64,000 nt of DNA, from positions 30,563-94,562 of the forward strand of contig CAYMJU010000032.1 in assembly GCA_964390555.1 (NCBI GenBank), given 5' to 3'. The notes beneath the pieces are model-generated. The model ran no database searches. It was not told the origin of the DNA and was given only the letters and a program-made list of their open reading frames with translations. A program made the translations under genes and the position numbers. How positions within the stretch are numbered: the first letter of the stretch is position 1; each line of letters begins with the position of its first letter. Shown piece after piece: positions 23,737 through 61,513 of this stretch. Origin of the DNA: an uncultured Acidimicrobiales bacterium (GTDB taxonomy: Bacteria; Actinomycetota; Acidimicrobiia; Acidimicrobiales; SHLQ01).

Positions 23737-23764
23737 GTGAACGTTCGATGTCTGAGCGGTCTCG

Positions 23765-23786
23765 CTCGCCTGCTAGCGCAGGCGAG
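23765..23786 (+). terminator. hairpin downstream of thiQ
   Basis: CTCGCCTGC-TAGC-GCAGGCGAG is a perfect 9-bp stem with a 4-nt loop. It lies 29 nt after the thiQ stop. Confidence 0.5.
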
Positions 23787-23880
23787 AAATGCCACTGTCA
23801 CATCGGAGGGCTCGCCTATCGGCTCGCCCTATGAGCTGACCGATGCCTCCCCGGCACCGGGGTCGTGTGAGAGTGAGCCG

Positions 23881-33655: not shown

Positions 33656-33708
33656 GTCCAACCAGACGATCGAACCATCCCGATGGTTCTCGCCTAACGT
33701 TCGCGGCA

Positions 33709-34554
33709 ATGTCGCCGTCTCTTCCCGGGCCGCTCGTCGATGGTCCATGGTTGGTCGACCATCTCGACGACGTCGCGGCCCGACGGCTGGTCGTCGTCGA
33801 CTCCCGCTGGTACCTCGACGGTCGCAGCGGACGGGCGGCGTACGGGGAAGGACACCTACCTGGTGCCCGATGGGTCGACCTCGATACCGAACTCGCCGCA
33901 CCTTCGGGGCCCGTCGTCGGCCGTCATCCCCTGCCTGAGCCTGCGGTGTTCGCGGGCGCCATGCGCCGCGTGGGTGTCGACGCGGGAACGCCGGTCGTCG
34001 TCTACGACGACCAGCACGGGGCGGTCGCCGCGCGGTTGTGGTGGATGCTCGACGCGCTCGGTCACCCCGCGGCGGTGCTCGACGGCGGCATGGCCGCGTG
34101 GCCGGGCCTTCTGACGACTGACCTGCCGGCCGTCGTCACCGGCGACTTCGAGGAACGATCGTGGCCCACCGATCGGCTGGCGACGGCCGACGAGCTGATG
34201 ACCGGCTCGGCGACGGTCATCGACGCCAGAGCACGCGCCCGCTACACGGGCGAGGACACATCGATCGATGCTCGGGCCGGACACGTGCCGGGCGCGCGGA
34301 ACGTGCCGTGGGCCGAACTGGTCGACCCCGGGATCGGGACGATGCGCGGCTCCGCCGAGCTCGCGGAGGTGTTCGAAGCCGTCGGCGTCACCGCTGGCAC
34401 CCCGGTGATCGCCTACTGCGGGTCGGGAGTCACCGCATGTTTCGACCTGCTGGCGCTTCGCTCCCTCGGGGTGACCGATGCCCGCCTGTACCCGGCGAGC
34501 TGGTCCGGATGGGCAACCGACCCCACCCGCCCCGCCGCGCTCGGCGACACCTGA
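33709..34554 (+). CDS. sseA: tandem-rhodanese sulfurtransferase (3-mercaptopyruvate/thiosulfate sulfurtransferase)
   Basis: Has two rhodanese domains, with GHLPGARWVD and GHVPGARNVP. The active-site loop YCGSGVTAC is the MST-type CGSGVTA. Confidence 0.85.
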   Translation: MSPSLPGPLVDGPWLVDHLDDVAARRLVVVDSRWYLDGRSGRAAYGEGHLPGARWVDLDTELAAPSGPVVGRHPLPEPAVFAGAMRRVGVDAGTPVVVYDDQHGAVAARLWWMLDALGHPAAVLDGGMAAWPGLLTTDLPAVVTGDFEERSWPTDRLATADELMTGSATVIDARARARYTGEDTSIDARAGHVPGARNVPWAELVDPGIGTMRGSAELAEVFEAVGVTAGTPVIAYCGSGVTACFDLLALRSLGVTDARLYPASWSGWATDPTRPAALGDT

Positions 34555-34611: not shown

Positions 34612-36969
34612 TCACAGCGCGAACCAACCGACGAGGTCGGTGACGAGGTGAACGTTGCCGGTGTTGTTGTAGAGCGACACCTTGCCGTCGGCGCCGACTT
34701 TGGCGATCACCAGGTTGGGTACGTCCTGGCCGACCTGGGTGTTGAGGCTCGAGGCATTCGGCCGGCCCTCCCCGGTCGGCCACACGGTTACGAACGAGCG
34801 GGCGGTGGCCTGCGTCGACGTGACGTTGAGGGCGACGGCCGCGACCCCCGACGCCGGCGCACCACCGACGCCGACGACCTGGAGGTCGAACGAACGGCCC
34901 GCGCCGAGGGGGATACCGAACCCCTCGCGGGTGTCGAACAGTCGAGCGGGCGTGAGGGGCGTGTAGCCCGAGCCGTTGGCGAAGTACCCGACGACGTCGG
35001 CCACCAGGTGAACACTGCCCGAGGCGTTGAACAGCGACACCTTGCCGCCGGTACCGACCTTGGCTATGACCAGGTTCGGGACGTCTTCACCGACCTGGGT
35101 GTTGAGGCTCGACGCCGTCGGTCGGCTCTCTCCGGTCGGCCACACGGTCACGTAGGAGCGATTGGACGCCTCGGTCGAGGTCACGTTCAAGACCACGGCA
35201 CCGACGCCCGAGCCGGGCACGCCGCCGACGCCGAGCACGCCCAGGTCGACCTGGCCGCCGGGACCGAGCGCAGCGGGCGCCGGGAGACCGGTTCCGTCGC
35301 GGGTATCGAGCACGCGAGCCGGGGTCAGCGGCGTACAGCCCTGACCGGTCGGGAACCAGCCCACGGCGTCCGCGATGAGGTGGACCGATCCGGCGTTGTT
35401 GAACATCGACACCTTGCCGTTGGCGCCGACCTTGGCGATCACCAGGTTCGGCACGTCCTCGCCGACCTGGGTGTTCAGGCTCGACGCCCGTGGCCGCTCC
35501 TCGCCGGTCGGCCAGACCGTCACGAACGACGGGTGCGTCGCCTGGGTCGACGTCACGTTGAGCACGACAGCACCGACCCCCGATGCCGGGGTCCCGGCGA
35601 TGCCGAGCACGGTGACGTCGATCGACGACTGTCCGGCCAGCGGACCGACAGGAGCCCCGGTGCCGTCACGAGTGTCGAGCACCCGGTTCGGTGACAGCGG
35701 CGCGTAGCCCCCGGTGTAGGCGAGCACGGGCGGGACGTTGCCACCACCGCTCGCGGCCTGGAAGAGGTCGAGCTTGGTGTGCGTCGCGCCGAGGATCGCC
35801 GAGTCGTCACCACCGAGCCACGTGCCGAGCAACGTTGCGTACACGGATCGGAAGTCGACGTGGTGCTCGAGATCGCCTCGTTGGTCGAGAGCGCTGACCG
35901 ACGGGTAGAGGCCGTGATGGCCTCCCCGCACCTGAGACCCGACGACGAGCAACGTGTTCGCGGTGCCGTGGTCGGTGCCGCCGCCATCATTGGCCTCGAC
36001 CCGGCGACCGAACTCGCTGAAGACGAACAGCGTCACTCGATCACGGAACTGCGGCGACAGGCTGTTGAAGAACAGTTCGATGGATTGGTCGAGCTCGGTC
36101 AGCAGATCGCGGTGGGTACCGTCCTGGGCGTCGTGGGTGTCGTACCCGCCCTGTTCGACGCCGAGGACACGGACGCCGATGTCGGTGTTGATGAGCTGAG
36201 CACAGATCTGGAGGTTCCGCGGCAGGTGCCCATCGGTGAGGTTCTGGAAAGCGGGTTGCACCTGGGCCGCGACCGCGGTCGCGACACCGGTGGTCGACGC
36301 CACCCGGTTGGCCCATTGCCCCTTCCCGAAATCGTCCTGGCCCATGGCCTCGATGGTGGCGTAGAGACCCTGCTCCCACGGCTCGTCGCGGTCGGCGCCG
36401 AGCAACGATCCCGACGACGGCAGGGCGATCGCGGTCGTCTGGGCTCCCTTGAGGTACAGCGGCACGCTTCCCCACGACACGTGAACTCCGGCCAGGTCGT
36501 CCATGGCGAGGGCATCGAGGTAGCGGCCGAGCCACCCGGTCGTCGGTGGCAAGTTGCCCGGTCGCCCGCCCATCCACCGGGCCGCGGACGTGAAGTGGCT
36601 GTGGTCGTCGAGAGGGTCACCGACCCCGTGGACCAACGCCACGTCGCCGGCGTTGAACCGGCTGTGGAGGAGCGGCAGGTTCGGGTGCAGGTACAGCCCG
36701 CCGCCGACTGGCCTCCCCGTCGCCGGGCTCACGGCGAGGGGTCCCCGCAAGCTTTGGTAGACGCCGTTCTCGGCTGGGGCCACCGTGTTCAGACCGTCGT
36801 TGCCGCCCGACAGGAAGACGTTGACGAGGATCCGCTCGGTCGGACCGAGTGGCGGGCCGGCGAGGGCGTGGCCGCGAAACCAGCCCGGGTCGACGAGCGC
36901 GGCGCCGCCGAGGGCTATGGCGCCCTGCAGGAACGAGCGGCGGGCGAAGGCGGAAGGTAAGTGGGCCAT
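34612..36969 (-). CDS. Tat-exported DUF1501 (sulfatase-fold) protein fused to three C-terminal ~120-aa repeats
   Basis: MAHLPSAFARRSFLQGAIALGGAAL is a twin-arginine signal. The DUF1501 core has GGNDGLN, GGYDTH, FSEFGRR and GTDHGT. It is followed by 3 repeats of YTPLTPARVLDTRDG...VLNVTSTQA...FVTVWPTGE.RP.ASSLNTQVG.DVPNLVIAKVG..GKVS..N..G.VHL..D.VG.F. The SD GAGAGGA precedes ATG 36969. Confidence 0.85.
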   Translation of the reverse strand: MAHLPSAFARRSFLQGAIALGGAALVDPGWFRGHALAGPPLGPTERILVNVFLSGGNDGLNTVAPAENGVYQSLRGPLAVSPATGRPVGGGLYLHPNLPLLHSRFNAGDVALVHGVGDPLDDHSHFTSAARWMGGRPGNLPPTTGWLGRYLDALAMDDLAGVHVSWGSVPLYLKGAQTTAIALPSSGSLLGADRDEPWEQGLYATIEAMGQDDFGKGQWANRVASTTGVATAVAAQVQPAFQNLTDGHLPRNLQICAQLINTDIGVRVLGVEQGGYDTHDAQDGTHRDLLTELDQSIELFFNSLSPQFRDRVTLFVFSEFGRRVEANDGGGTDHGTANTLLVVGSQVRGGHHGLYPSVSALDQRGDLEHHVDFRSVYATLLGTWLGGDDSAILGATHTKLDLFQAASGGGNVPPVLAYTGGYAPLSPNRVLDTRDGTGAPVGPLAGQSSIDVTVLGIAGTPASGVGAVVLNVTSTQATHPSFVTVWPTGEERPRASSLNTQVGEDVPNLVIAKVGANGKVSMFNNAGSVHLIADAVGWFPTGQGCTPLTPARVLDTRDGTGLPAPAALGPGGQVDLGVLGVGGVPGSGVGAVVLNVTSTEASNRSYVTVWPTGESRPTASSLNTQVGEDVPNLVIAKVGTGGKVSLFNASGSVHLVADVVGYFANGSGYTPLTPARLFDTREGFGIPLGAGRSFDLQVVGVGGAPASGVAAVALNVTSTQATARSFVTVWPTGEGRPNASSLNTQVGQDVPNLVIAKVGADGKVSLYNNTGNVHLVTDLVGWFAL
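34615..35706 (-). repeat. three tandem ~360-bp coding repeats (C-terminal domain triplication)
   Basis: DNA-level similarity is visible by eye, for example GACCTGGGTGTTGAGGCTCGA at 34732-34752 and 35092-35112, and a one-mismatch copy (GACCTGGGTGTTCAGGCTCGA) at 35464-35484. CCGGTCGGCCACACGGT recurs at 34771-34787 and 35131-35147, with a diverged copy (CCGGTCGGCCAGACCGT) at 35503-35519. The period is about 360-370 bp. Confidence 0.85.
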
Positions 36970-36982
36970 GATCGTTGTCCTC

Positions 36983-38338
36983 TCACGCCACCTGGAAGTC
37001 GGGGGATAGCGCCCCGAGGACGACGCCATAGGGCTGGATGGACCACGAGTACTGCTGTCGAGACGTCAACCACCACGCCTCGAACCGTGTCCGGGTCGCG
37101 GCCGACGGCTCGTTGACGCCGAAGTCGTCGAACATCCGGTTGACGGCTGTGGTCGCGGACCCTTGTGTCGCGGTGCCGGCCGAGAGTCCGTCGAAAAATC
37201 CGTAGTCGTCTGCTCGCCACCCGAGGTGTCCGGCGAAGGCCCCGCGCGCCCACGAATTGGCGGTCGATATCCAAAAGCCGTTCTGCGGCCATCCGGCGAC
37301 GCTCGGCGGGTCGAAGGGAGCCATCCCCATCTCCGAGAGCTGGTAGTGGACGTGCTCCGACGACGCGATACGGGTCCGCCGGAGGGCGCTGACCACGAAC
37401 TCGATCGGGTTCTTCACCAGCTGGTACCGGCTGGCGGCATCCCAGAACTCGTCGCGCATCAGCACCGCCTCGACGAGGACACCGATGTCCCAGTTGGCGG
37501 CGATGAACGAGTCGGCGAGTTGGTTCACCGCGGCGTCACTCGGCGTGATGTGGATGAAGTACTTGAAGAGCTTGCGGGCGATGAACCGGGCAGTCAGCAG
37601 TCCCCGCGCACCGGTGCAGAGCTCGGTGATCGTGCTGTTGCCACCCGCCAGTCCGGTGCCGTCCCAGTTGCCGGTGATTCCGAAGAGGGTCTTCTGGCCG
37701 TGGTCGTGATCCTCGCTGTGGAATTCGAAGTCGATGTCGTAGAAGACCCCGTTCCAGCCGACCACGTTGTACCCGGTCCACGCCCGAGCCATCGCCACCA
37801 CGTCAGCCTCGGTGAAGTTGCCGACGCCGATGGTGTACAGCTCCATCAGTTCCCGGGCGAAGTTCTCCTGGATGCCGCTGGCCACGTTCGACTCGTTGTC
37901 GAGGGCGACGAGCATCGCCGAGCCGAGCGACACCTGGGTCAACAGGGTGGGGAAATGACCGAGGGCGTGAGTCCGGAAGAGATCGAACTGGTTCCGCATG
38001 GCGGGCCAGTCGCCGACCTTCTCGAACGAACATGCGAAGTGGCTGTGCCAGAAGAGGATCATCTTCTCGACGAGCGGCGCTGGCGTGGTGATCATGCGAT
38101 CGACCCACCATCTGGTCGTGTTCACCCAGTCGAGCCAGTCCCCTTCGACGCTCGGGGCTGGGTAGGCGACGGCGGGTGGAGCCTGTCCCATCACGTAGTC
38201 GACCGCTTGCTGGCGGCTCAGGGCTGTCAGATGGATGATGCGCCACGGGTCCGACGCTGCGGACTCTCCGGTGAGCAGGCGCCGCTCCCCGAATCCGGTA
38301 CGTCGAAGCAGGTGCGCCGCTTCCGCGGTGGTGACCAT
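36983..38338 (-). CDS. DUF1800 family protein
   Basis: The N-terminal MVTTAEAAHLLRRTGFG is the hallmark DUF1800 start. It sits immediately upstream of DUF1501, the usual DUF1800-DUF1501 gene pair. Confidence 0.85.
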   Translation of the reverse strand: MVTTAEAAHLLRRTGFGERRLLTGESAASDPWRIIHLTALSRQQAVDYVMGQAPPAVAYPAPSVEGDWLDWVNTTRWWVDRMITTPAPLVEKMILFWHSHFACSFEKVGDWPAMRNQFDLFRTHALGHFPTLLTQVSLGSAMLVALDNESNVASGIQENFARELMELYTIGVGNFTEADVVAMARAWTGYNVVGWNGVFYDIDFEFHSEDHDHGQKTLFGITGNWDGTGLAGGNSTITELCTGARGLLTARFIARKLFKYFIHITPSDAAVNQLADSFIAANWDIGVLVEAVLMRDEFWDAASRYQLVKNPIEFVVSALRRTRIASSEHVHYQLSEMGMAPFDPPSVAGWPQNGFWISTANSWARGAFAGHLGWRADDYGFFDGLSAGTATQGSATTAVNRMFDDFGVNEPSAATRTRFEAWWLTSRQQYSWSIQPYGVVLGALSPDFQVA

Positions 38339-38494: not shown

Positions 38495-39754
38495 ATGGCA
38501 TCGCGCAACGCACCCCTGGCCGGTATCGATCTGCTCGACATGGACCGCTTCGTGCGGGGCGAGCACCACGAGATGTTCCGCCGACTCCGGTCCGAGTCAC
38601 CGGTGTACTGGCACGCCGGGCCCGGGGCGGACGGGTTCTGGAACGTGACCAAGCACGCTGACCTGATCGAGGTGAACCGCGACGCGGTGACGTTCTCCTC
38701 CGAGGTCGGCGGGATCAGCATCTTCGACTTCGACCAGCACGAGGGCACGGGCGGTGGGATGGACCCGCGCGGCCTGATGATGCTGTACATGGATCCGCCG
38801 CGACACACGCGCTACCGGCTCCTCGTGAACAAGGGCTTCACGCCTCGCATGATCGGGTTGATCGAGCAGTACCTGCGGCACCGATCCACGCTGATCATCG
38901 ACAACGTGATCGAGAGCGGTTCCATCGACTTCGTCGACGACGTGGCGTCAGAACTGCCGCTTCAAGCCATCGCCGAGATCATGGGCGTCCCCCAGGAGGA
39001 TCGGCGGCTGTTGTTCGAGTGGTCCAACGCCATGATCGGCGCCGACGACCCCGAGTACCAGAACGAGGACAACGGCCTGGCGGTCATGCAGCTTTACGCC
39101 TACGTGAACGAGTTGGCCAAGGCGCGCGCCGCCGATCCCCGCGACGACATCGTCACCAAGCTGATCAACTCCGAGGTCGAAGGCGACAAGCTGTCCGAGA
39201 TCGAGTTCGACATGTTCATGATGCTGTTGACGGTGGCCGGCAACGAGACGACCCGCAACACCACATCCCACGGAATGCACGCCCTTCTCACCAACCCCGA
39301 CCAACTCGAATGGCTGATGGCCGATATCGACGGCCGGCTCGACTCGGCGATCGAGGAGATCCTGCGGTGGGCGTCGCCGGTGCTTCACTTCCGGCGAACG
39401 GCGACGGCCGATGCCGAGATTCGTGGGGTACCGATCTCGGCGGGCGACAAGGTCGTGATGTGGCACATCTCGGCCAACCGCGACGAGGAGGTGTTCGTCG
39501 ATCCCTACGAGTTCCGGCTCGACCGGTCGCCGAACGACCACATCGCGTTCGGCGGCGGTGGGCCGCACTTCTGCCTGGGAGCCAACCTGGCGCGCATGGA
39601 GCTGCGGCTGATCTTCCACGAGATCCTCACCCGGATCCCCGACATGACGCTCGCTGGCGAGCCCAAGTACCTGCGATCCAACTTCATCGGCGGCATCAAG
39701 CACATGCCGGTGCGGTTCGCGCCGGGCGCGAGAGCCGAGCCGGTGCCCGTCTGA
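38495..39754 (+). CDS. cytochrome P450 (CYP124/125/142-like)
   Basis: The heme loop is FGGGGPHFCLGANLARME, the I-helix is LLTVAGNETTRN and the ExxR motif is EEILRW. Confidence 0.9.
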   Translation: MASRNAPLAGIDLLDMDRFVRGEHHEMFRRLRSESPVYWHAGPGADGFWNVTKHADLIEVNRDAVTFSSEVGGISIFDFDQHEGTGGGMDPRGLMMLYMDPPRHTRYRLLVNKGFTPRMIGLIEQYLRHRSTLIIDNVIESGSIDFVDDVASELPLQAIAEIMGVPQEDRRLLFEWSNAMIGADDPEYQNEDNGLAVMQLYAYVNELAKARAADPRDDIVTKLINSEVEGDKLSEIEFDMFMMLLTVAGNETTRNTTSHGMHALLTNPDQLEWLMADIDGRLDSAIEEILRWASPVLHFRRTATADAEIRGVPISAGDKVVMWHISANRDEEVFVDPYEFRLDRSPNDHIAFGGGGPHFCLGANLARMELRLIFHEILTRIPDMTLAGEPKYLRSNFIGGIKHMPVRFAPGARAEPVPV

Positions 39755-39763
39755 CCCGCGCGA

Positions 39764-40279
39764 TCAGGCCGCGATCAGATCCAGAACCTCATCCTCGGGG
39801 ATCGCTCCTCGCCACGCCCCGAGGATCTCACCATCGGCCGCGAAGAGCGCCGCGGCTGGCTGCCCGGTGATGCCGAGCTGAGTCCACGACTCGAACGTCG
39901 CGTCCCAGTACATCGAGAGCGTCAGGTCGTGCCGATCGACGAACGCGATCGCGTCGTCGAGGTTGTCCTGGGTACCGAGTCCGATGACTCGGAGCTGGTC
40001 CGCGTTCTGTCGAGCGAACTGCTCGACGCCGGGGGCTTCCCCGTTGCACGCACTTCAGTGCGGGGCCCAGAACCACACGAGCAGCGGCTTGTCGGCCGGT
40101 AGCTGCGCCGCCAGCGACGCCGGCTCACCGGTGTGGAGATCGGCGACGTCGACCGCTGGCAACGGTGACCCCGATGACGCCTCGCTCGCCGTGTCGATCG
40201 CCGTCGGGCCAGCGCCGCCGCCGCAGGCGCCCATCGGCACCATGACGAGGGCGGCGACCGCCAGCAACCGTGAGCGCAT
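39764..40279 (-). CDS. TlpA/ResA-like thioredoxin-fold lipoprotein with in-frame TGA (predicted selenocysteine, UxxC motif)
   Basis: MRSRLLAVAALVMVPMGAC provides a lipobox. The sequence runs ...KPLLVWFWAPH-TGA-SACNGEAPGVEQFARQNADQLRVIGLGTQDNLDDAIAFVDRH...GITGQPAAALFAADGEILGAWRG. The TGA at 40055-40057 is codon 75 and aligns with the first Cys of FWAxWCxxC. The frame stays open with family-like sequence for 96 more codons to the stop at 39764. Confidence 0.75.
40026..40049 (-). promoter_or_regulatory. candidate bacterial SECIS hairpin downstream of the TlpA-like UGA
   Basis: mRNA: UGA-AGUGC-GUGC[AA]CGGGG-AAGC-CCCGGCGU. The stem has about 9 pairs (2 G-U), an AA bulge, and an apical loop containing G 19 nt after the UGA. 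Confidence 0.5.
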
Positions 40280-40350
40280 CGCTTGGACTGTACCGGCCTC
40301 GACGCCACCCCCGGAGCGCGCCGGGTGACGGGTTTCGCGATTGTTGTCGC

Positions 40351-41061
40351 TCAGGACGCGCCGACGCCCAAGAGGCTGCCGATCACATAGGTGGCCGCGC
40401 AGGCACCGGCCGCGACCGCGACCTGGCGGGCCGCCGTGCGCACGATCGATCGCTCCGTGAACCGGGCCAGAGCCACGCCGACGAGCACGGCCGCGATCAT
40501 CCCGATCACGACCGATGCCATCGCGGCCGCGGTTCCGCCGCCCATGAACCAGGGCACGAGCGGCAGCACGGCGCCGAGCGCGAAACCGAAGAACGAGGTG
40601 CCAGCCGCCCGGATCGCGCTGCCGAGGCCCGCCGGGTCGATGCCGAGCTCCTCGCGTGCATGGACGTCGAGCGCCACGACGGGGTCGGCATGGAAGTGAC
40701 GCGATACGACGTCGGCCTGTTCCCGAGACAGGCCACGGGAGCGGTAGATCGCCGCCAGCTCCTCCTGTTCGAGCCCTGGGTTCTCGGCCAACGAACGACG
40801 CTCGATCTCGAGCTCCCGCTCGATCAGCTCGTTCTGGGCGGTGACCGACACCCATTCCCCGGCCGCCATCGACAGTGCGCCGGCGAGCAGGCCCGACAGG
40901 CCCGCGAGTCGCACGAGCGAAGCGTCGGTGGAGGCGCCGGCGATGCCGAGCACCAACGCGACGTTCGACACCAGCCCATCGCTGACGCCGAACACCAACG
41001 CCCGCGCGGTGCCCCCCTGCACGTCACGATGCCGGTGCACCTGGTCGAAGGCTCGAGCCAC
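40351..41061 (-). CDS. VIT1/CCC1 family iron/manganese transporter
   Basis: Has ARALVFGVSDGLVSNVALVLGIAGAS and C-terminal TM helices with ...FALGAVLPLVPW. GTG 41061 lies 4 nt after the thiolase stop. The track's longer N-terminus overlaps the upstream gene. Confidence 0.8.
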   Translation of the reverse strand: MARAFDQVHRHRDVQGGTARALVFGVSDGLVSNVALVLGIAGASTDASLVRLAGLSGLLAGALSMAAGEWVSVTAQNELIERELEIERRSLAENPGLEQEELAAIYRSRGLSREQADVVSRHFHADPVVALDVHAREELGIDPAGLGSAIRAAGTSFFGFALGAVLPLVPWFMGGGTAAAMASVVIGMIAAVLVGVALARFTERSIVRTAARQVAVAAGACAATYVIGSLLGVGAS

Positions 41062-41065
41062 GTCG

Positions 41066-42520
41066 TCAGTCTCGCACCGACCGCGACGCGGTGCCGTGCC
41101 CGACCACCACTCGGGCGCCGCAAAGCTCGTCGCGCCTGGAGCGGCGCGCCGTCTCGGCGTCGAGCCGGGCCAGGGTCCGGCGGCCGTCGGCGAGATCGAC
41201 GATCGCCCAGCCGGTGTCGTCGGGAAGCGCGGTGTAGGTGACAACCCGGCCGGGGCCGTCGATGGCGGCCACGCACGGGACCCGGGGCGTCGCCGCTTCG
41301 ACCGCGCCGGTCACGTCGGCGTGCCAGTAGCCGTCGCCGGGCTCGCTCGACCACACCATCGCCCCCTGCTTGGTCAACATCCCGCTCACCGCGGTAACGA
41401 GTCCAACGCGGCCCGGTTCGGCCCGCAGTCGGCGCGCCATCACCGCCGTGCTCCAGAGGGTGTAGTGGTTGAACGGGCCACCGGCGAACGCCATGCCGCC
41501 GGTGACCGTGAGGTCCTGATGTTCGGGGTCGAGCCCGATCTCTCGCGCTTGCAGCCCGACGGCGACCGGAAAGCACGAATACAGATCGACCAGGTCGACG
41601 TCGTCGAGGTCGAGGTCGGCCAGCCCGAGCGCGGCCCGAGTGACCTGGCCAGCGCCCGGGCACCGCCACGGCTCGGCCCGTTCGGTCAGGGGGACTACGC
41701 AGTCGTGATCGGCGCCCGCGAGTGGGAAGACCCACCTGTCCGGCGCCACACCCGCCGCCCGGGCCGCGCCGACCGACATCAACAACAGCGCCGTCGACTG
41801 GTCGATCGTCCATTGGGTGCTGTGCCACTTGTTGTACGGGAAGGCGAGCGGCCGGTTACCCGGCGACGCGGCGGCGATCCCGCCAGCAGTACGGGCTCCG
41901 GCGAACCACGCTTCGGGATTCGTCGCGGCGATCTCGTCGAACCGGGACCACAAGGCGGCGACCTCGGCGGCGTGAGCGTCGAGCGTCAGGCCATCGTGAT
42001 GGCGAACGGCGTTCTCGATCATGGCGTACTGGTACACGGCTTCGATCAACCGGGCGTCGATCTCCAGCAGCGAGACCGGGATGTCGCTGGGCCGCCAGAG
42101 CTCGTCGGGATCGCGACCGGCGCGCGCCTCGGGGGCCTCGACCCCCGACCGGGCGGCGCGCTGAGCCCGGGCACGGTTCTCGACACCGAGCACCACGACC
42201 GAGTCGTGCTCACCTGACAGGATCGCCTCGCAGGCCCGGGCCAGAATCGCGGTCTGCGCGATTCCGAGCTGGGCGACCACGCTGGTAGCCCGCTCCGGCA
42301 CGCCGGCGGCGCGCGCTGCCGCGCCCCCGATATCGTCGCCTGACCAACTCCCCTTGGCCGTGAGGATCAGTGTCGTCGCGCCGGCCACGCCGACTCCGCC
42401 GGCATCGGCGAACGCTCCGTTGATCGCGCCCGTGGCGAGTGAGATCCGGTCGAGGTCGAGCCCCGGGTGACCAGCGGTGCCCACGCCGACCAGCACCGGC
42501 TGGCGATCGTCATCACCCAC
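41066..42520 (-). CDS. thiolase-superfamily protein (acetyl-CoA acetyltransferase / SCP-x-like)
   Basis: 484 aa. Has PVLVGVG..., DLVDLYSCFPVAV and GGMAFAGGPFNHY motifs, as in non-canonical actinobacterial thiolase-like (Ltp-type) proteins. Confidence 0.7.
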   Translation of the reverse strand: MGDDDRQPVLVGVGTAGHPGLDLDRISLATGAINGAFADAGGVGVAGATTLILTAKGSWSGDDIGGAAARAAGVPERATSVVAQLGIAQTAILARACEAILSGEHDSVVVLGVENRARAQRAARSGVEAPEARAGRDPDELWRPSDIPVSLLEIDARLIEAVYQYAMIENAVRHHDGLTLDAHAAEVAALWSRFDEIAATNPEAWFAGARTAGGIAAASPGNRPLAFPYNKWHSTQWTIDQSTALLLMSVGAARAAGVAPDRWVFPLAGADHDCVVPLTERAEPWRCPGAGQVTRAALGLADLDLDDVDLVDLYSCFPVAVGLQAREIGLDPEHQDLTVTGGMAFAGGPFNHYTLWSTAVMARRLRAEPGRVGLVTAVSGMLTKQGAMVWSSEPGDGYWHADVTGAVEAATPRVPCVAAIDGPGRVVTYTALPDDTGWAIVDLADGRRTLARLDAETARRSRRDELCGARVVVGHGTASRSVRD

Positions 42521-45483: not shown

Positions 45484-47487
45484 ATGAGCACGCGGACGGT
45501 TCTCGGTACCTGCCACCACGATTGCCCGGACTCGTGCGGGTGGGTGGTCACCGTCGAAGGGGATCGGGCCGTGAAGCTGCGCGGCAACCCCGATCACCCG
45601 TACTCCCTGGGCGAGTTGTGCCCCAAGGTCAACCGGTTCCTCGACCGGGTCTACGCCGACGACCGACTCCTTCACCCCCTCGTCCGCAGTGGCCCCAAAG
45701 GCACGGGCGAGTTCCGGACGGTGACGTGGGCCGAGGCGACCGCGCTGGTCGCGGAGCGGGTGGGCGCCGTCATCGCCGAGCACGGCGGCGAGGCCGTGCT
45801 GCCATGGTGGGATGCCGGCACGCAGGGGCTGATCCAGATGTCCAGCCTGGACCGGCGCTTCTTCGCCCAGCTCGGCGCATCTCGGCTCACCGGCTCGATC
45901 TGCGGAGCGACCGCTGGAGCCGGCACCGCCGCGACCTACGGAACCGGCCGCACCGCCGACCCACTCGACGTGGTGCACGCCGAGGTGGTGATCCTGTGGG
46001 GCACCAACACGCGGCTGACCAACCGGCACCTCTGGCCCTTCGTTGAACAGGCCCGGGCCAACGGGGCGCAGGTCGTCGTCATCGACCCGATGCGCACCGT
46101 CACCGCCGAGTCGGCCGATTGGTTCATCCAACCGCGGCCCGGCACCGACGTGGCTCTGATGCTCGCGATCATGCATGTGCTCGTCCGCGACGACCTGGTC
46201 GACCACCGCTACGTCGATGACCACGCCACCGGATACGAGGACCTGGCGGACCGCGTCGCCGACTGGACGCCCGAGCGCGCCGCGGCCGAAACCGGAATCG
46301 GGGCCGACGAGATCGAACGCCTGGCCCGGCTGTATGGCTCGACCAAGCGCACGTTCATCCGCACCCTGATCGGGGCCGAGCACCACGCCAACGGCGCCAT
46401 GTTCTTCCGCACCCTCGCGTGCCTACCGGTGCTCACCGGAGCGTGGACCGTCCTCGGCGGGGGCCTGGCCCGCTCGACCGGCATCTGGTCCGAGGCCCAC
46501 ACCGACAGCTCGGTGTTCGACCCCGTCGACCGACCGGCGACCCGGGCGATCAACATGAACCACCTCGGGCGAGCGCTCACCGACCCGTCGATCGGCATCC
46601 ACGCCCTGTTCGTGTGGTGCGCCAACCCATTGGTTTCGGTCCCCAACTCGACGCAGGTCCGGGCCGGCCTCGAGCGTGACGACCTGTTCTGCGTGGTGTC
46701 AGAGCAGTTCCTCACCGACACCGCCCGCTACGCCGACGTGGTGTTCCCGGCCACCACCCAGATCGAGCAGGTCGACGTGATCCCTTCGTGGGGGTCGATG
46801 CACATGGGATGGAACGAAGCGGCGATCGCCCCGCTAGGCGAGGCGGTGCCCAACACCGAACTGTGGCGGCGACTGGCGCGGGCGTTCGGGATGAGCGACC
46901 CGCTGTTCGATCTCGACGACGAGGCCCTGATCCAGCTGGCGATCAGGGGCCACGACGTTGCCGAGTTCCGCACGCAGGGGTGGCTGGAGCATGACCTCGT
47001 CCGCCCCCACCTCCCATACGCACATGGAGGATTCGCCACTGCTGACGGCCGGGCTCAGCTCCGCGCCGACGGGCTCTCCGGCATCGGCGCCGATCCTCTG
47101 CCCGTCTACCAGGCCCCACCCGCGCCCACCGCCGAGCATCCACTGGTTCTGTTGTCGCCCAAGACCCACGCGCGATTCCTCAACTCCACCTATTCACACC
47201 ACCACGGCCCTCTCGAAAGCGGTCCCTACGTCGAGCTCGACCCCGCCGATGCGGCCGAGCGGGACATCGCCGAGGGCGACCCGGTCCGGATCCACAACGA
47301 CCGAGCAAGCCTCACGCTCCCGGCCCGGTTCACCGGCCGAGTGCGCCCCGGCGTCGTCGCGGTGCCGTGGGCGTGGTGGGGCGAGGTCGCCAACGTCAAC
47401 GCCCTCACCGACGACACCCTCACCGAGTGGGGCGGCGGCGTCGGCTACTCCGACACCCTGGTGCAGGTCTCCCCCGTCATACGCTGA
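45484..47487 (+). CDS. molybdopterin (bis-MGD) oxidoreductase, MopB superfamily
   Basis: The N-terminal 4Fe-4S motif is CHHDCPDSCGW...C. MGD-binding blocks and a C-terminal beta-barrel (GDPVRIHNDRASL) are present. The candidate Mo-ligand residue is Cys (GSICGAT), not TGA. Confidence 0.85.
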   Translation: MSTRTVLGTCHHDCPDSCGWVVTVEGDRAVKLRGNPDHPYSLGELCPKVNRFLDRVYADDRLLHPLVRSGPKGTGEFRTVTWAEATALVAERVGAVIAEHGGEAVLPWWDAGTQGLIQMSSLDRRFFAQLGASRLTGSICGATAGAGTAATYGTGRTADPLDVVHAEVVILWGTNTRLTNRHLWPFVEQARANGAQVVVIDPMRTVTAESADWFIQPRPGTDVALMLAIMHVLVRDDLVDHRYVDDHATGYEDLADRVADWTPERAAAETGIGADEIERLARLYGSTKRTFIRTLIGAEHHANGAMFFRTLACLPVLTGAWTVLGGGLARSTGIWSEAHTDSSVFDPVDRPATRAINMNHLGRALTDPSIGIHALFVWCANPLVSVPNSTQVRAGLERDDLFCVVSEQFLTDTARYADVVFPATTQIEQVDVIPSWGSMHMGWNEAAIAPLGEAVPNTELWRRLARAFGMSDPLFDLDDEALIQLAIRGHDVAEFRTQGWLEHDLVRPHLPYAHGGFATADGRAQLRADGLSGIGADPLPVYQAPPAPTAEHPLVLLSPKTHARFLNSTYSHHHGPLESGPYVELDPADAAERDIAEGDPVRIHNDRASLTLPARFTGRVRPGVVAVPWAWWGEVANVNALTDDTLTEWGGGVGYSDTLVQVSPVIR

Positions 47488-58565: not shown

Positions 58566-59164
58566 GCGGTCAGACCCCTGGCCGCGAGCTCGGCCCGTAG
58601 AAGAGTCGCTTCGGTGAACAAGAGGCTGTCGAACCCGAGCGCCGCGGCGGCGTCGATGTTGGCGACGGAGTCGTCGACGAACACCGCGTCGCCAGGCCGG
58701 AAGCCGTAGCGCCCGCACAAGAGCTCGTAGATGGCGGGCTCCGGTTTGACCACGCCCTCGAAGCCCGAGATCACCATGCCCTCGAACCAGTCGAGGAACG
58801 GGTAGCGGTTCCGGATCATGGCGAAGGTGTCACGACCCCAGTTCGACAGCGCGAAGCACCGGTGGCCCGCGGCAACCAACTCGCCCAGCAGCTCGACGAC
58901 ATCGTCGAGTGCGGGACCCAACGTGTCGGTCCAGCGTGTCTCGAACGCCTCGAACGCGTGCTGGTACTGCGGGTACCGGCGGGTGAGGTCGGCCGCGACG
59001 TGACCCAGCTCGACGCCGCGGTCGAGGACCGCGTTCTCGTCGAGCGTGTAGATGTGGTCGAGGAAGTGGTCGAGCTCGCCGGGGTCGTGGATGACCCGCT
59101 CGAACAGTCGCCGGCGATCCCACGGGATCAACACGTTGCCGAGGTCGAACACCACGACACCCAT
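58562..59164 (-). CDS. HAD-IA family hydrolase
   Basis: Motif I is VVFDLGNVL, motif II is ALSNW and motif III/IV is KPEP...VFVDDS. ATG overlaps the selD stop (ATGA). Confidence 0.85.
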   Translation of the reverse strand: MGVVVFDLGNVLIPWDRRRLFERVIHDPGELDHFLDHIYTLDENAVLDRGVELGHVAADLTRRYPQYQHAFEAFETRWTDTLGPALDDVVELLGELVAAGHRCFALSNWGRDTFAMIRNRYPFLDWFEGMVISGFEGVVKPEPAIYELLCGRYGFRPGDAVFVDDSVANIDAAAALGFDSLLFTEATLLRAELAARGLTA

Positions 59165-60198
59165 CAGCGCAACATCATCCTTCCGGAGCCCGGACCCTCG
59201 ACCCGGCCGACCGCCGCCGCCGCATGTCCGGTGCGGCCGAGCTCGGCGAGCACCTCGGCCGCCCGATCGGCGTCGACACCGAACACCAGACCACCGGAGG
59301 TCTGGGCATCAGCGAGCAAGGTCACGGTCAGCTCGTCGATGGCCCCCCGCTCGAGTCGGGCCTCGACGGCCGCGAGGTTGCGGGCCGACCCGCCGGGCAC
59401 GAACCCGGCCGCCGCCAGCTCGCGGGCGCCGGGGAGCAGCGGCACCGCGGCGGCGTCGAGCGCGACATCGACGGCGGACTCGACCGCCATCCGGCCGAGG
59501 TGGCCAAGAAGCCCGAACCCGGTCACGTCGGTCGCGCCCGTCGCGCCGGCGGCGAGCGCTACCGCGCTCGCCACATCGTTGAGACGGGTCATCGACGCCA
59601 CCGCAGCGTCGACCGAATCGCTGGAAGCCTTGCCGCGTTTGATCGCGGTGGCGATAACACCGATGCCGAGCGGCTTGGTGAGCACGAGCACCTGACCGGC
59701 CCGGAGACCGGCGTTGGTCAACAGCCGATCGGGGTGGACCTCGCCGACCACGGCCATGCCGTACTTCGGTTCGGGATCATCGACGGTGTGGCCGCCGGCG
59801 ATGACGAACCCGGCTTCGGCGGCGATCGAGGCTCCACCTTCGAGGACATCGCCCAGCAGATCGGTCGAGAGCTCGTCGTTGTTCCAGCACACGAGGTTCA
59901 ACGCCAGCAGCGGCCGGCCGCCCATGGCGTACACGTCGCTCACCGAGTTGGCTGCGGCGATCCGGCCCCACGTGCGCGCGTCGTCAACGAGCGGTGTGAT
60001 GAAGTCGGCGGTGACCACCAGGGCGCGCGAGTCGTCGAGCCGCCAGACGGCGGCATCGTCGCCGGTGTCCGAACCGACCAGCAGATCGGGGTGCGGAGAG
60101 GCGGGTTGGAGGCGGCGCACGACCTGCGCCAGCGCATCAGGCGCCAGCTTGCAGGCTCAGCCCGCGCCGTGGCTGTACTGGGTGAGTCGACGAGTCAC
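59164..60198 (-). CDS. selD: selenide, water dikinase (selenophosphate synthetase) with in-frame TGA = selenocysteine
   Basis: GTG 60198 has the SD GGGGGAGG 7-9 nt upstream. The translation is VTRRLTQYSHGAG-TGA-ACKLAPDALAQVV..PDLLVGSDTGDDAAV...TADFITPLVDD...GRIAAANSVSDVYAMGG. It is collinear with the E. coli SelD LTQYSHGAGCGCKI region, with TGA (60157-60159, codon 14) at the Cys17 position. The track only shows the truncated 59164-60120 ORF. Confidence 0.9.
60122..60156 (-). promoter_or_regulatory. candidate SECIS hairpin immediately downstream of the selD UGA
   Basis: mRNA: UGA-GCCUGC[AA]GCUGGCGC-CUGAU-GCGCUGGCGCAGGU. The stem has about 14 pairs (several G-U), an AA bulge and a G-containing apical loop about 19 nt after the UGA. 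Confidence 0.55.
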
Positions 60199-61474: not shown

Positions 61475-61513
61475 AGCTCCTGGAACGTGATGCCGCGAGC
61501 GTACAGTTGCGCA

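What the first reader, a model, noticed from the sequence alone, without database searches (positions are those of the whole stretch)
39764..40279. TlpA-like lipoprotein with TGA at the first Cys of its CxxC motif: predicted UxxC selenoprotein
The track ORF 40055-40855 ends ...KPLLVWFWAPH at a TGA (40055-40057). Reading on in the same frame gives SACNGEAPGVEQFARQNADQLRVIGLGTQDNLDDAIAFVDRHDLTLSMYWDATFESWTQLGITGQPAAALFAADGEILGAWRGAIPEDEVLDLIAA, with the stop at 39764. Joined to the lipobox N-terminus (MRSRLLAVAALVMVPMGAC), this is a complete 171-aa TlpA/ResA-type redoxin. The TGA sits exactly where FWAxW-C-xxC has its nucleophilic Cys. A hairpin with an AA bulge and a G-containing loop starts about 6 nt after the UGA. 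selD, 20 kb away in the same window, is itself TGA-encoded. An exported UxxC lipoprotein in an actinobacterial-type genome would be missed or called a pseudogene by standard annotation.
Basis: partly seen in the sequence, partly recalled or inferred. Interest (0 to 1): 0.8.

Follow-up and report, generated by a model that had tools for sequence, protein, structure and literature searches.

The report
Selenocysteine TlpA-like lipoprotein gene, real
The in-frame TGA is almost certainly a selenocysteine codon in an exported, lipid-anchored thiol-disulfide oxidoreductase that is conserved across Acidimicrobiia, but this kind of selenoprotein was already predicted from marine metagenomes in 2005, so it is a solid new member rather than a new kind.

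Summary
On the minus strand, 40279-39764 reads as one 171-codon TlpA/DsbE-type redoxin. It has a lipobox signal peptide and a TGA (40057-40055) exactly at the first Cys of CxxC (FWAPH-U-SAC).

The selenoprotein reading is strongly supported:
- In 80 species-level genomes of Acidimicrobiia-type bacteria, the same codon is TGA in 78 and TGC/TGT in 2.
- dN/dS is about 0.16 on both sides of the TGA.
- 76 of 81 genes keep a lipobox.
- Two conserved hairpins follow the TGA. Both are kept by rare synonymous codons and are absent from the two Cys forms.

It has a 7-bp stem, an AGUUC loop and a 34-nt spacing.

selD in the window (59164-60198, minus strand) is also UGA-encoded. Its Sec-type relatives carry the same tandem-hairpin layout with clear covariation.

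selA, selB and tRNA-Sec could not be checked for this genome.

The kind is known. 'Thiol-disulfide isomerase-like' UxxC selenoproteins with WFWAPWuGGCNREA motifs were listed in 2005. What may be undescribed is the subfamily's breadth in Acidimicrobiia, its lipoprotein nature, its systematic split annotation and the tandem-hairpin signal shared with selD.

The parts
39764..40279 (-). Complete gene for a 171-residue TlpA/DsbE-like lipoprotein with Sec at residue 75 (ATG 40279-40277; terminal stop TGA 39766-39764).
   Evidence: Translation. Pfam Redoxin and AhpC-TSA match across the TGA. Orthologues in 80 genomes.
40223..40279 (-). Signal peptide with lipobox (MRSRLLAVAALVMVPMGA-C19). Cys19 is the predicted lipidated residue.
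   Evidence: Read from the sequence. A lipobox-type motif such as LAAC, LSAC or VGAC is present in 76 of 81 family members. It was identified by pattern only; no SignalP or LipoP was available.
40055..40057 (-). In-frame TGA, the predicted selenocysteine codon (residue 75, first position of U-S-A-C).
   Evidence: The homologous codon is TGA in 78 of 80 genomes and TGC or TGT in 2. It aligns with the first Cys of CxxC in M. tuberculosis DsbE and DsbF.
40046..40048 (-). TGC, the resolving Cys78 of the UxxC motif.
   Evidence: Invariant in alignment A1 and in all 74 distinct DNA sequences (TGC 63, TGT 11).
40028..40047 (-). Hairpin 1 (nt 11-30 after the U of UGA): GC-AA-CGGGG / AAGC / CCCCG-GC. 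It is probably an accessory or spacer helix.
   Evidence: -9.8 kcal/mol. A hairpin is kept here in the family in three different pairing registers. It is more stable than synonymous recodings in 47 of 74 sequences. The loop G is at position 3, so the SECIS loop criterion is not met in the window.
40009..40027 (-). Hairpin 2 (nt 31-49): GUCGAGC / AGUUC / GCUCGAC. This is the best SECIS-core candidate (GU in the apical loop, 34 nt after the UGA).
   Evidence: -12.4 kcal/mol, z = -5.3. 97.5% of cells are paired in 74 sequences, with CG->UA (4) and AU->GC (1) compensations. Rare codons GCT (70/74 against 7% background) and CGA (56/70 against 15%) are fixed. 66 of 74 sequences are beyond the 5% tail of synonymous recodings. 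It fits the bSECIS criteria quoted.
39767..40054 (-). C-terminal 96 codons of the thioredoxin fold, translated only if the UGA is recoded. They include GLGTQD and Q140-P141 (39857-39862), which aligns with the QP of M. tuberculosis DsbE/DsbF.
   Evidence: Invariant columns in A1. dN/dS is 0.16. Alignment to PDB 1LU4 and 3IOS covers residues 62-166.
59164..60198 (-). selD (selenide, water dikinase) with Sec codon TGA at 60157-60159. The only selenium-pathway gene found in the window, and a second selenoprotein gene.
   Evidence: NCBIfam TIGR00476 scores 379 bits against a cut-off of 125.
60114..60146 (-). Tandem hairpins after the selD UGA: nt 15-29 (GGCGC/CUGAU/GCGCU) and nt 30-46 (GGCGCA/GGUCG/UGCGCC, GU in the loop).
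   Evidence: -6.1 and -10.0 kcal/mol. The same two helices in 54 Sec-type selD relatives are 94.3% paired, with 7 pairs showing compensatory changes and 0 of 500 shuffles as high. They are absent from Cys-type selD.

Best explanation
The region 40279-39764 (minus strand) is one functional gene. It encodes an exported, lipid-anchored thioredoxin-fold oxidoreductase of the TlpA/DsbE family. Its attacking active-site residue is selenocysteine (FWAPH-U-S-A-C).

Shown here:
- The UGA sits at the first Cys of CxxC.
- It is conserved as TGA across the family.
- Both halves are under equal purifying selection.
- mRNA structure directly downstream is under selection at synonymous sites.
- The Sec-type selD relatives, and the window's own selD by its own folds, carry the same kind of downstream structure.

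Inferred mechanism of decoding: when the ribosome reaches UGA-75, SelB carrying Sec-tRNA(Sec) binds the in-frame SECIS and inserts Sec instead of terminating. The most likely SelB target is hairpin 2 (nt 31-49, loop A-G-U-U-C). Hairpin 1 (nt 11-30) probably acts as a structured spacer or helper. My estimates are about 0.6 that hairpin 2 alone is the SelB site, about 0.25 that both are needed, and about 0.15 that hairpin 1 is the site.

Inferred function: the pre-protein is exported and lipidated at Cys19. Outside the membrane, the Sec75 selenolate attacks a substrate disulfide, sulfenate or peroxide. Cys78 resolves the adduct to an intramolecular Se-S bond, which a membrane electron donor re-reduces. 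The substrate and the donor are unknown. No ccdA/resB-type partner is linked to the gene.
For: - Single ORF with one internal TGA; the Pfam match spans it.
- TGA at the homologous codon in 78 of 80 species genomes, Cys codon in 2.
- Cys-type full-length homologues exist.
- dN/dS is 0.16 upstream and 0.16 downstream. dS is halved (0.42 against 0.83) in the 16 codons after the TGA.
- Rare synonymous codons are fixed where they pair.
- Both hairpins are more stable than synonymous recodings (H2 in 66/74, H1 in 47/74), and the Cys forms lack them.
- Compensatory changes occur in H2.
- H2 meets all four criteria of the published bSECIS model.
- selD in the window is Sec-type. 54 Sec-type selD relatives have the same tandem-hairpin layout with strong covariation and GU loops at nt 37-38, against nt 39-40 here.
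- TGA cannot be a sense codon genome-wide: this gene and more than half of its orthologues also end in TGA.
- A simple descriptor (open high-GC3 frame plus H2-type hairpin) picked 64 TlpA-like, 6 selD and only 6 junk sites among 24,366 TGA triplets.
- A lipobox is present in 76 of 81.
- The nearest solved structures are the M. tuberculosis extracytoplasmic proteins DsbE/MPT53 and DsbF.
- Acidimicrobiia (Actinomarinales) are reported to carry selA/B/C/D and a Sec-type SelD.
Against: - selA, selB and tRNA-Sec were not seen. The window has no tRNA gene and the source genome is not in the searchable collections.
- No Rfam SECIS family matches. These models are reported to cover bacterial SECIS poorly.
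- Hairpin 1 changes pairing register between subclades, so the fixed-register count is only 76% paired.
- Which hairpin binds SelB is not determined.
- There is no experimental evidence of selenium incorporation for any member.
- The lipoprotein call rests on a sequence pattern only.
- Function beyond 'thiol-disulfide oxidoreductase' is inference. There is no conserved partner gene.
Confidence: 0.88

Rival explanations
1. Pseudogene, nonsense mutation or sequencing error. On this view the TGA terminates a dead TlpA-like gene and the downstream 96 codons are a decaying remnant.
For: Standard gene callers stop at the TGA. Public annotations give two fragments.
Against: The same TGA is in 78 of 80 independent genome assemblies from different species. 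dN/dS downstream is 0.16, the same as upstream. Catalytic and structural residues downstream are invariant.
Confidence: 0.01
2. Selenium-independent read-through. On this view the hairpins stimulate near-cognate decoding of UGA (Trp, Cys, Arg or Gly), giving a non-selenium full-length protein.
For: Downstream hairpins can promote read-through in general (own knowledge). No Sec-specific factor was seen in the window other than selD.
Against: The UGA replaces exactly the nucleophilic Cys of CxxC, the classical Cys/Sec exchange site, and Cys-codon orthologues exist. The same hairpin layout follows the UGA of Sec-type selD relatives, at the site where published work describes a Sec/Cys polymorphism of SelD. 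Hairpin 2 fits the SelB-type SECIS consensus. Trp, Arg or Gly at this site would kill catalysis.
Confidence: 0.05
3. Two separately translated polypeptides. On this view a 74-residue lipoprotein fragment ends at the TGA and an independent ~96-residue protein is re-initiated just after it. This matches the database models that start 'MCRAEAP...'.
For: Many database entries start at the codon before the second Cys.
Against: That codon is not a conserved start. It is ATC in 21, ACC in 14, GTG in 8 and GTC in 7 sequences, and it is GCG in the window. The break would cut a single thioredoxin fold between strand beta-1 and the active-site helix, and would leave the C-terminal piece without an export signal.
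Confidence: 0.02
4. It is a real selenoprotein, but hairpin 1 is the SelB-binding SECIS and hairpin 2 is only a translational pause or stability element.
For: Hairpin 1's loop lies at nt 20-23, the same distance from the UGA as the E. coli fdhF loop bases G23/U24 (own knowledge of fdhF). Hairpin 1 is maintained in three pairing registers across the family. selD relatives also keep a first hairpin at nt 11-29.
Against: [quoted passage not shown] Hairpin 2 loops are AGUUC or GUU in all 74, and the selD second-hairpin loops all contain GU. Hairpin 2 shows the stronger synonymous-site constraint.
Confidence: 0.15

Closest known systems
'Thiol-disulfide isomerase-like protein' selenoprotein family (UxxC, cd02966 TlpA-like). 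Zhang, Fomenko & Gladyshev 2005, Sargasso Sea; listed in the 2026 catalogue of prokaryotic selenoproteins.
   Same: Same fold, same motif context and same Sec position. The Sargasso reads AACY01523057 (LLWFWAPWuGGCNREAAAV...) and AACY01075364 (MWFWSPNuGQCRAEASAV...) align with the window protein at 35% identity, E = 2e-14, across the U. The family is catalogued as UxxC.
   Different: The window belongs to a distinct subfamily (WAPH-U-[PST]x-C-[RN][RA]EAPGVEQFAR) found in Acidimicrobiia-type genomes. The Sargasso members have a single hairpin with an E. coli-like GGUC loop at nt 25-38, not the tandem hairpins with an AGUUC loop at nt 38-42. The 2005 reads were fragments without N-termini, so no lipobox or taxonomic range could be read from them.
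Mycobacterium tuberculosis DsbE (MPT53, PDB 1LU4) and DsbF (PDB 3IOS).
   Same: They are the best solved-structure matches (E = 2e-13 and 6e-13). The aligned active site is WFW(T/A)PWC(P)xC(N/Q)(A/G)EAP, and QP aligns with Q140-P141. They are extracytoplasmic actinobacterial thioredoxin-fold proteins.
   Different: They use Cys-x-x-Cys and have Trp, not His, before the first Cys. Identity is only about 30-35%. The window protein is not shown to share their substrates or redox direction.
TlpA (Bradyrhizobium), ResA (Bacillus) and CcmG/DsbE (Gram-negative) cytochrome-maturation reductases.
   Same: Membrane-tethered extracytoplasmic thioredoxin folds with a WxxWCxxC-type site. There are weak NCBIfam hits to DsbE, ResA and TlpA models.
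   Different: All those hits are far below the curated cut-offs (for example DsbE 43.7 against 123, ResA 32.4 against 170, TlpA 23.5 against 230). No ccdA/resB/resC neighbours are present in the window or in 80 related loci.
Bacterial SECIS of E. coli fdhF and the consensus bSECIS model (Zhang & Gladyshev, as summarised in PMC13188914).
   Same: An in-frame stem-loop directly after the UGA. Hairpin 2 has a 7-bp stem, a 5-nt loop with G at position 2 followed by U, a 34-nt spacing and -12.4 kcal/mol, so all four model criteria are met.
   Different: Two adjacent conserved hairpins instead of one. The GU loop is about 15 nt further from the UGA than in fdhF (own knowledge of fdhF numbering). No Rfam SECIS model matches.

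Membership tests
Bacterial selenoprotein gene (Sec-UGA) | The in-frame UGA aligns with Cys in homologues and is conserved as UGA in orthologues. | tested here: met
   78 TGA, 1 TGC and 1 TGT among 80 genomes. Cys-type homologues with HCPAC or HCSAC exist.
Bacterial selenoprotein gene (Sec-UGA) | Protein-level purifying selection continues downstream of the UGA. | tested here: met
   Median dN/dS is 0.16 for codons +17 to +96 and 0.16 for codons -30 to -1. Downstream residues are invariant.
Bacterial selenoprotein gene (Sec-UGA) | bSECIS stem-loop: 3-9 nt loop, 4-16 bp stem, G in the first two loop positions, 16-37 nt spacing, MFE <= -7.5 kcal/mol (criteria as quoted). | tested here: met
   Hairpin 2 has a 7-bp stem, loop AGUUC, 34-nt spacing and -12.4 kcal/mol. 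It is conserved with compensatory changes and synonymous-site constraint. Hairpin 1 alone fails the loop-G criterion in the window.
Bacterial selenoprotein gene (Sec-UGA) | selA, selB and tRNA-Sec (selC) are present in the same genome. | not testable with these tools
   Only 64 kb is available. It contains no tRNA gene, and no selA or selB among the ORFs that were scanned; not every ORF in the window was scanned. The source genome is not in the collections. Indirect support: selD in the window is itself Sec-type, and published Acidimicrobiia genomes carry the full machinery.
Bacterial selenoprotein gene (Sec-UGA) | Selenium is actually incorporated (75Se labelling or mass spectrometry). | not testable with these tools
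   This needs an experiment.
TlpA-like / redoxin thioredoxin-fold family (Pfam PF08534, PF00578; CDD cd02966) | The profile match is above the curated threshold and covers the whole domain. | tested here: met
   AhpC-TSA scores 36.2 bits (cut-off 26) and Redoxin 34.1 bits (cut-off 26.6), over residues 36-161. CDD itself was not searched.
TlpA-like / redoxin thioredoxin-fold family | C-x-x-C active site after a hydrophobic WxxW-type strand, and a conserved Pro at the position of the thioredoxin-fold cis-Pro loop. | tested here: met
   WFWAPH-U-SAC aligns with WFWTPWCPFC and WFWAPWCPTC of 1LU4 and 3IOS. Q140-P141 is invariant and aligns with their QP. Sec replaces the first Cys. That this Pro is the cis-Pro is my own reading of the fold; no structure was obtained here.
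Bacterial lipoprotein | N-terminal signal peptide ending in a lipobox [LVI][ASTVI][GAS]-C. | tested here: inconclusive
   The window has M-G-A-C19 after a basic n-region and a hydrophobic core. 76 of 81 relatives have LAAC, LSAC or VGAC-type boxes. This is a pattern match only; no dedicated predictor and no lgt/lspA check.
Cytochrome-c maturation reductases (ResA / CcmG-DsbE / TlpA equivalogs) | Score above the NCBIfam equivalog or subfamily cut-off, and linkage to ccdA/resB/resC or ccm genes. | tested here: not met
   All NCBIfam hits are far below cut-off. No such neighbours are present in the window and there is no conserved partner in 80 loci.
Rfam SECIS families | Covariance-model match at or near the gathering score. 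| tested here: not met
   There is no SECIS hit in the window at gathering thresholds, nor at E <= 10 in 39700-40300.

The most novel reading that the evidence does not exclude
In Acidimicrobiia-type actinobacteria the selenocysteine insertion signal may be a tandem-hairpin element. It would consist of a register-flexible first helix at nt ~11-31 that abuts a GU-loop helix at nt ~30-48. It is shared by unrelated genes (selD and this TlpA-like gene) and is not captured by the single-hairpin bSECIS model or by Rfam. The TlpA-like UxxC lipoprotein it serves may be a very widespread, lipid-anchored, cell-surface selenoenzyme of largely aerobic marine, soil and sponge-symbiont actinobacteria. That runs against the view, stated in the 2026 review, that aerobes rarely retain selenoproteins.
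Probability: 0.3. Interest if true: 0.55.

Novelty: new member of a known kind. Interest (0 to 1): 0.4.

Why it matters
The finding gives a clean, comparatively validated selenoprotein gene that current annotation pipelines split into a 'hypothetical protein' and a truncated 'TlpA family protein' in many Acidimicrobiia genomes. Fixing this changes the predicted selenoproteome and the cell-envelope redox inventory of an abundant marine, soil and sponge-associated class.

It also provides two independent gene families with the same two-hairpin signal after the UGA. That is a ready-made training set for a lineage-specific SECIS model, and a test case for how SelB reads a GU loop placed 35-40 nt from the UGA.

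It does not open a new category. UxxC TlpA-like selenoproteins were predicted in 2005.

Tried and rejected
- Rfam at gathering and at permissive thresholds: no SECIS match.
- tRNA scan of the window: no tRNA-Sec.
- Look-up of the neighbouring P450 to identify the source contig: not on record. The organism is therefore inferred only from its nearest relatives (Acidimicrobiia MAGs).
I relied on sequence alignment to PDB 1LU4 and 3IOS instead.
- RNAalifold on the full alignment: it recovered only hairpin 2, because hairpin 1 shifts register between subclades. Hairpin 1 was therefore assessed by per-sequence folding and synonymous recoding.
- Search for a conserved partner gene (ccdA, resB, msrAB and the like) next to the gene in the window and in 80 related loci: none found, only clade-level synteny with a gcvT-like gene.
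- Scan of the window for other in-frame TGA genes by GC3 continuity: only this gene came up, plus selD found separately. The other three candidates were antisense-frame artefacts.
- Descriptor scan of all roughly 1 Mb of fetched loci for more UGA-plus-hairpin-2 genes: no further credible selenoprotein.
- Rejected readings: pseudogene or sequencing error, re-initiation giving two proteins, and global TGA reassignment. The last is excluded because TGA is also this gene's own stop.
Full report
**1. The observation**

The minus strand from 40279 to 39764 translates as MRSRLLAVAALVMVPMGACGGG...ADKPLLVWFWAPH*SACNGEAPGVEQFARQNADQLRVIGLGTQD...EDEVLDLIAA*. The only internal stop is TGA at 40057-40055, and the terminal stop is TGA at 39766-39764.

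With the stop replaced by Cys, Pfam AhpC-TSA and Redoxin both pass their gathering scores. Both matches cover residues about 36-161, straight through the TGA. The window is 69% G+C with GC3 of 0.84-0.88 on both sides of the TGA.

selD is present at 59164-60198 (minus strand) and has its own in-frame TGA in RLTQYSHGAG-U-ACK. It scores 379 bits on the NCBIfam selD equivalog, whose cut-off is 125. All factual elements of the finding are therefore correct.

**2. Is the TGA conserved?**

A protein search gave two kinds of relatives:
- Full-length proteins of 170-230 residues with HCPAC or HCSAC.
- About 50 clusters of fragments of about 96 residues beginning 'MCRAEAPGVEQFAR'. These are gene models that start one codon before the second Cys.

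A scan of one genome per species (GTDB representatives) found 330 relatives. The best 80 loci are all Acidimicrobiia-type MAGs: Ilumatobacteraceae, Microthrixaceae, the sponge symbiont Ca. Poriferisocius, and Sva0996. A few of them carry bin labels from other phyla.

The codon at the first Cys position is TGA in 78 loci, TGC in one and TGT in one. The flanks WFWAPH-*-xxC-[RN][RA]EAPGVEQF are conserved.

Nei-Gojobori estimates on 31 gap-free Sec-type genes give a median dN/dS of 0.16 for codons +17 to +96 after the TGA. The value for the 30 codons before it is also 0.16. The window gene against its nearest relatives gives dN of 0.20-0.22 and dS of 0.93-1.05.

This removes the pseudogene and sequencing-error readings. 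TGA cannot be a general sense codon either, because this gene and more than half of its orthologues also terminate with TGA.

**3. RNA structure after the UGA**

Per-sequence folding of 74 distinct orthologues shows two adjacent hairpins.

*Hairpin 1* lies at nt 11-31, counting the U of UGA as 1.
- Across the family it is kept in three pairing registers. Examples are CCGGG..CCCGG, GGGCG..CGCCC and UCGGG..CCCGA.
- A fixed-register count therefore gives only 76% pairing, with 18 compensated cells.

*Hairpin 2* lies at nt 31/32-48/49. In the window it is GUCGAGC/AGUUC/GCUCGAC (40027-40009), with -12.4 kcal/mol, z = -5.3 and 0 of 200 shuffles as stable.
- It is 97.5% paired across the family.
- It shows CG->UA compensation in 4 sequences and AU->GC in 1.

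Synonymous sites are constrained where they pair:

| Codon after the TGA | Observed | Family background |
|---|---|---|
| Ala codon 14 | GCT in 70 of 74 | 7% |
| Arg codon 15 | CGA in 56 of 70 | 15% |
| Glu codon 6 | GAA in 61 of 73 | 28% |

dS in the first 16 codons after the TGA is half that of the rest of the gene.

I recoded each sequence synonymously with family codon usage:

| Hairpin | Real mean MFE (kcal/mol) | Recoded mean MFE (kcal/mol) | Sequences within the 5% tail |
|---|---|---|---|
| Hairpin 2 | -9.9 | -3.7 | 66 of 74 |
| Hairpin 1 | -12.4 | -7.0 | 47 of 74 |

The two Cys-codon orthologues fold weakly at both positions. The Cys-type proteins also lack the VEQFAR peptide that encodes hairpin 2.

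**4. Which hairpin is the SECIS?**

The published consensus, quoted from PMC13188914, asks for four things:
- a 3-9 nt loop on a 4-16 bp stem;
- a G in the first two loop positions, usually followed by G or U;
- 16-37 nt between the UGA and the loop;
- an MFE of -7.5 kcal/mol or lower.

Hairpin 2 meets all four. It has a 7-bp stem, loop A-G-U-U-C, 34 nt of spacing and -12.4 kcal/mol. Hairpin 1 in the window has its G at loop position 3, and its loops vary across the family.

An independent check came from selD. Of 80 metagenomic relatives of the window's SelD, 57 have TGA and 23 have a Cys codon.
- The 54 distinct Sec-type sequences carry two tandem hairpins at nt 11-29 and 30-46.
- These are 94.3% paired, and 7 pairs show compensatory changes.
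- No shuffle of 500 reaches the observed covariation, and every slid control falls to 30-39% pairing.
- The second-hairpin loops are GUC, GUG, GUU, GGUCU, GGUCG or AGUUG, with GU at nt 37-38. In the TlpA-like family the GU is at nt 39-40.
- A second hairpin of -7.5 kcal/mol or better occurs in 94% of Sec-type but only 14% of Cys-type selD.
- The window's own selD fits: GGCGCA/GGUCG/UGCGCC at 60130-60114, -10.0 kcal/mol.

So two unrelated genes in this lineage share one architecture. I take the GU-loop second hairpin as the probable SelB site and the first as a helper, without being able to prove it.

A crude descriptor (open high-GC3 frame plus a hairpin-2-type stem-loop) was run on 24,366 TGA triplets in all fetched DNA. 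It picked 64 TlpA-like sites, 6 selD sites and 6 evident false positives. No Rfam SECIS model matches. A recent preprint on another Acidimicrobiia order reports the same failure.

**5. The protein**

The N-terminus is a signal peptide ending in a lipobox (M-G-A-C19). 76 of 81 family members have LAAC, LSAC or VGAC-type boxes. In many, a low-complexity linker follows; one example is the Pro/Thr/Asp-rich linker in L081.

The nearest solved structures are M. tuberculosis MPT53/DsbE (1LU4, E = 2e-13) and DsbF (3IOS, E = 6e-13). In these, WFWTPWCPFCNAEAP and WFWAPWCPTCQGEAP align with WFWAPH-U-SACNGEAP. Q140-P141, which I take to be the thioredoxin-fold cis-Pro position, is invariant and aligns with their QP.

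All NCBIfam equivalogs for DsbE, ResA and TlpA score far below their cut-offs.

The gene neighbourhood is not conserved. In the window the neighbours are a VIT1-family gene upstream and a convergent P450. DUF1800/DUF1501, a rhodanese-domain protein and a molybdopterin oxidoreductase lie further away. In 80 loci only a clade-level gcvT-like neighbour recurs, and no ccdA/resB-type gene appears.

The inferred chemistry follows from established thioredoxin-fold mechanisms, not from data here. The Sec75 selenolate attacks, Cys78 resolves, and the Se-S bond is re-reduced by an unknown donor.

**6. What could not be tested**

The window has no tRNA gene, and no selA or selB was found among the ORFs I scanned. 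The source genome is not in the collections.

The case for a working Sec pathway rests on three points:
- the Sec-type selD in the same window;
- the SECIS-like architecture shared between the TlpA-like gene, the Sec-type selD relatives and the window's own selD;
- a report that another Acidimicrobiia order universally encodes selA/B/C/D with a Sec-type SelD.

tRNA-SeC lies next to selD in three of the metagenomic loci, all of them Cys-type selD.

**7. Comparison with what is known**

The 2005 Sargasso Sea selenoproteome listed four 'thiol-disulfide isomerase-like' UxxC selenoproteins. Its supplement includes AACY01523057 (LLWFWAPWuGGCNREAAAV...) and AACY01075364 (MWFWSPNuGQCRAEASAV...). The former aligns with the window protein at 35% identity, E = 2e-14, across the U.

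[quoted passage not shown] It also lists a PF08534 'Redoxin family protein, UxxC' and a 'UGC-containing TlpA' family. The kind is therefore known, though only as a prediction.

I did not find the following described in the papers I searched:
- The WAPH-U subfamily's near-universal TGA state in Acidimicrobiia genomes.
- Its lipoprotein N-terminus.
- Its routine mis-annotation. For example, GCA_033344875.1 has two CDSs, L081 9425-9997 and 10001-10291.
- The tandem-hairpin signal shared with selD. The Sargasso relatives instead fold a single hairpin with an fdhF-like GGUC loop at nt 25-38.

My literature search was limited, so absence of a description is weak evidence.

**8. Verdict**

I put the probability that this is a genuine selenoprotein gene at about 0.88. 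It is a new member of a known kind, with moderate interest (0.4). The most novel surviving reading is the lineage-specific tandem-hairpin SECIS together with a widespread surface-anchored selenoenzyme in mostly aerobic actinobacteria (probability about 0.3).

Noticed in passing
window 59164-60198 (-); hairpins 60114-60146: selD is itself a selenoprotein gene (TGA at 60157-60159). Among 80 metagenomic relatives, 57 have TGA and 23 have a Cys codon. The Sec forms carry two covarying tandem hairpins after the UGA and the Cys forms do not.
   Followed up: yes
L081 9425-9997 and 10001-10291; proteins P0042, P0054, P0055, P0081: Public annotations (NCBI, JGI, ENA) split the orthologues into an N-terminal 'hypothetical' CDS and a fragment of about 96 aa. 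The fragment is named 'TlpA family protein disulfide reductase', 'peroxiredoxin' or 'hypothetical', and it often starts at the codon before the second Cys.
   Followed up: partly
P0056, P0058, P0067 (217-223 aa fragments); L009 (224 codons after the TGA): A subfamily carries a C-terminal extension of about 125 residues after the thioredoxin fold, with no Pfam domain on record. Its function is unknown.
   Followed up: no
Sargasso Sea reads AACY01523057 and AACY01075364 (supplement of PMC1088965): These more distant UxxC relatives fold a single hairpin with an E. coli fdhF-like GGUC loop at nt 25-38 after the UGA, not the tandem hairpins. This suggests the SECIS was remodelled or acquired separately within the broader family.
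   Followed up: partly
L114 5537-5632, L115 5449-5544, L118 5026-5121: tRNA-SeC (anticodon TCA) lies within about 0.5 kb downstream of Cys-type selD genes in three metagenomic contigs. None of the TGA-type selD loci that were scanned has it adjacent.
   Followed up: no
window 61290-61366 (+): A borderline Rfam hit to the Mycobacterium sRNA Ms_AS-1 (37.6 bits, gathering score 37). It lies opposite the amidohydrolase gene at 60293-61561 (-). It may be a chance match in G+C-rich coding sequence.
   Followed up: no
window 45484-47487 (+): A 667-aa molybdopterin oxidoreductase (Fe4S4, Molybdopterin and Molydop_binding domains) with no in-frame TGA. I did not check whether it is a Cys-type formate-dehydrogenase-like enzyme.
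   Followed up: no
window 33451-34554 (+) and 34612-38338 (-): A rhodanese-domain protein and a DUF1501/DUF1800 gene pair lie 2-6 kb from the selenoprotein gene. No evidence links them to it, and the neighbourhood is not conserved in relatives.
   Followed up: partly
L040 versus L041; L001 and L002: A 2.8-kb contig binned as 'Phenylobacterium sp.' shows the same protein segment around the Sec codon, and the same 66 nt after the TGA, as a contig binned as Acidimicrobiales. The two closest relatives of the window gene are labelled 'Acidobacteriota'. Both look like MAG binning or labelling errors.
   Followed up: no
window 41066-42520 (-), 21271-22404 (+), 22536-23834 (+): Long ORFs with no Pfam match at E <= 0.001. 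Of these, 41066-42520 passed the GC3 filter for likely genes. It lies two genes upstream of the selenoprotein gene.
   Followed up: no
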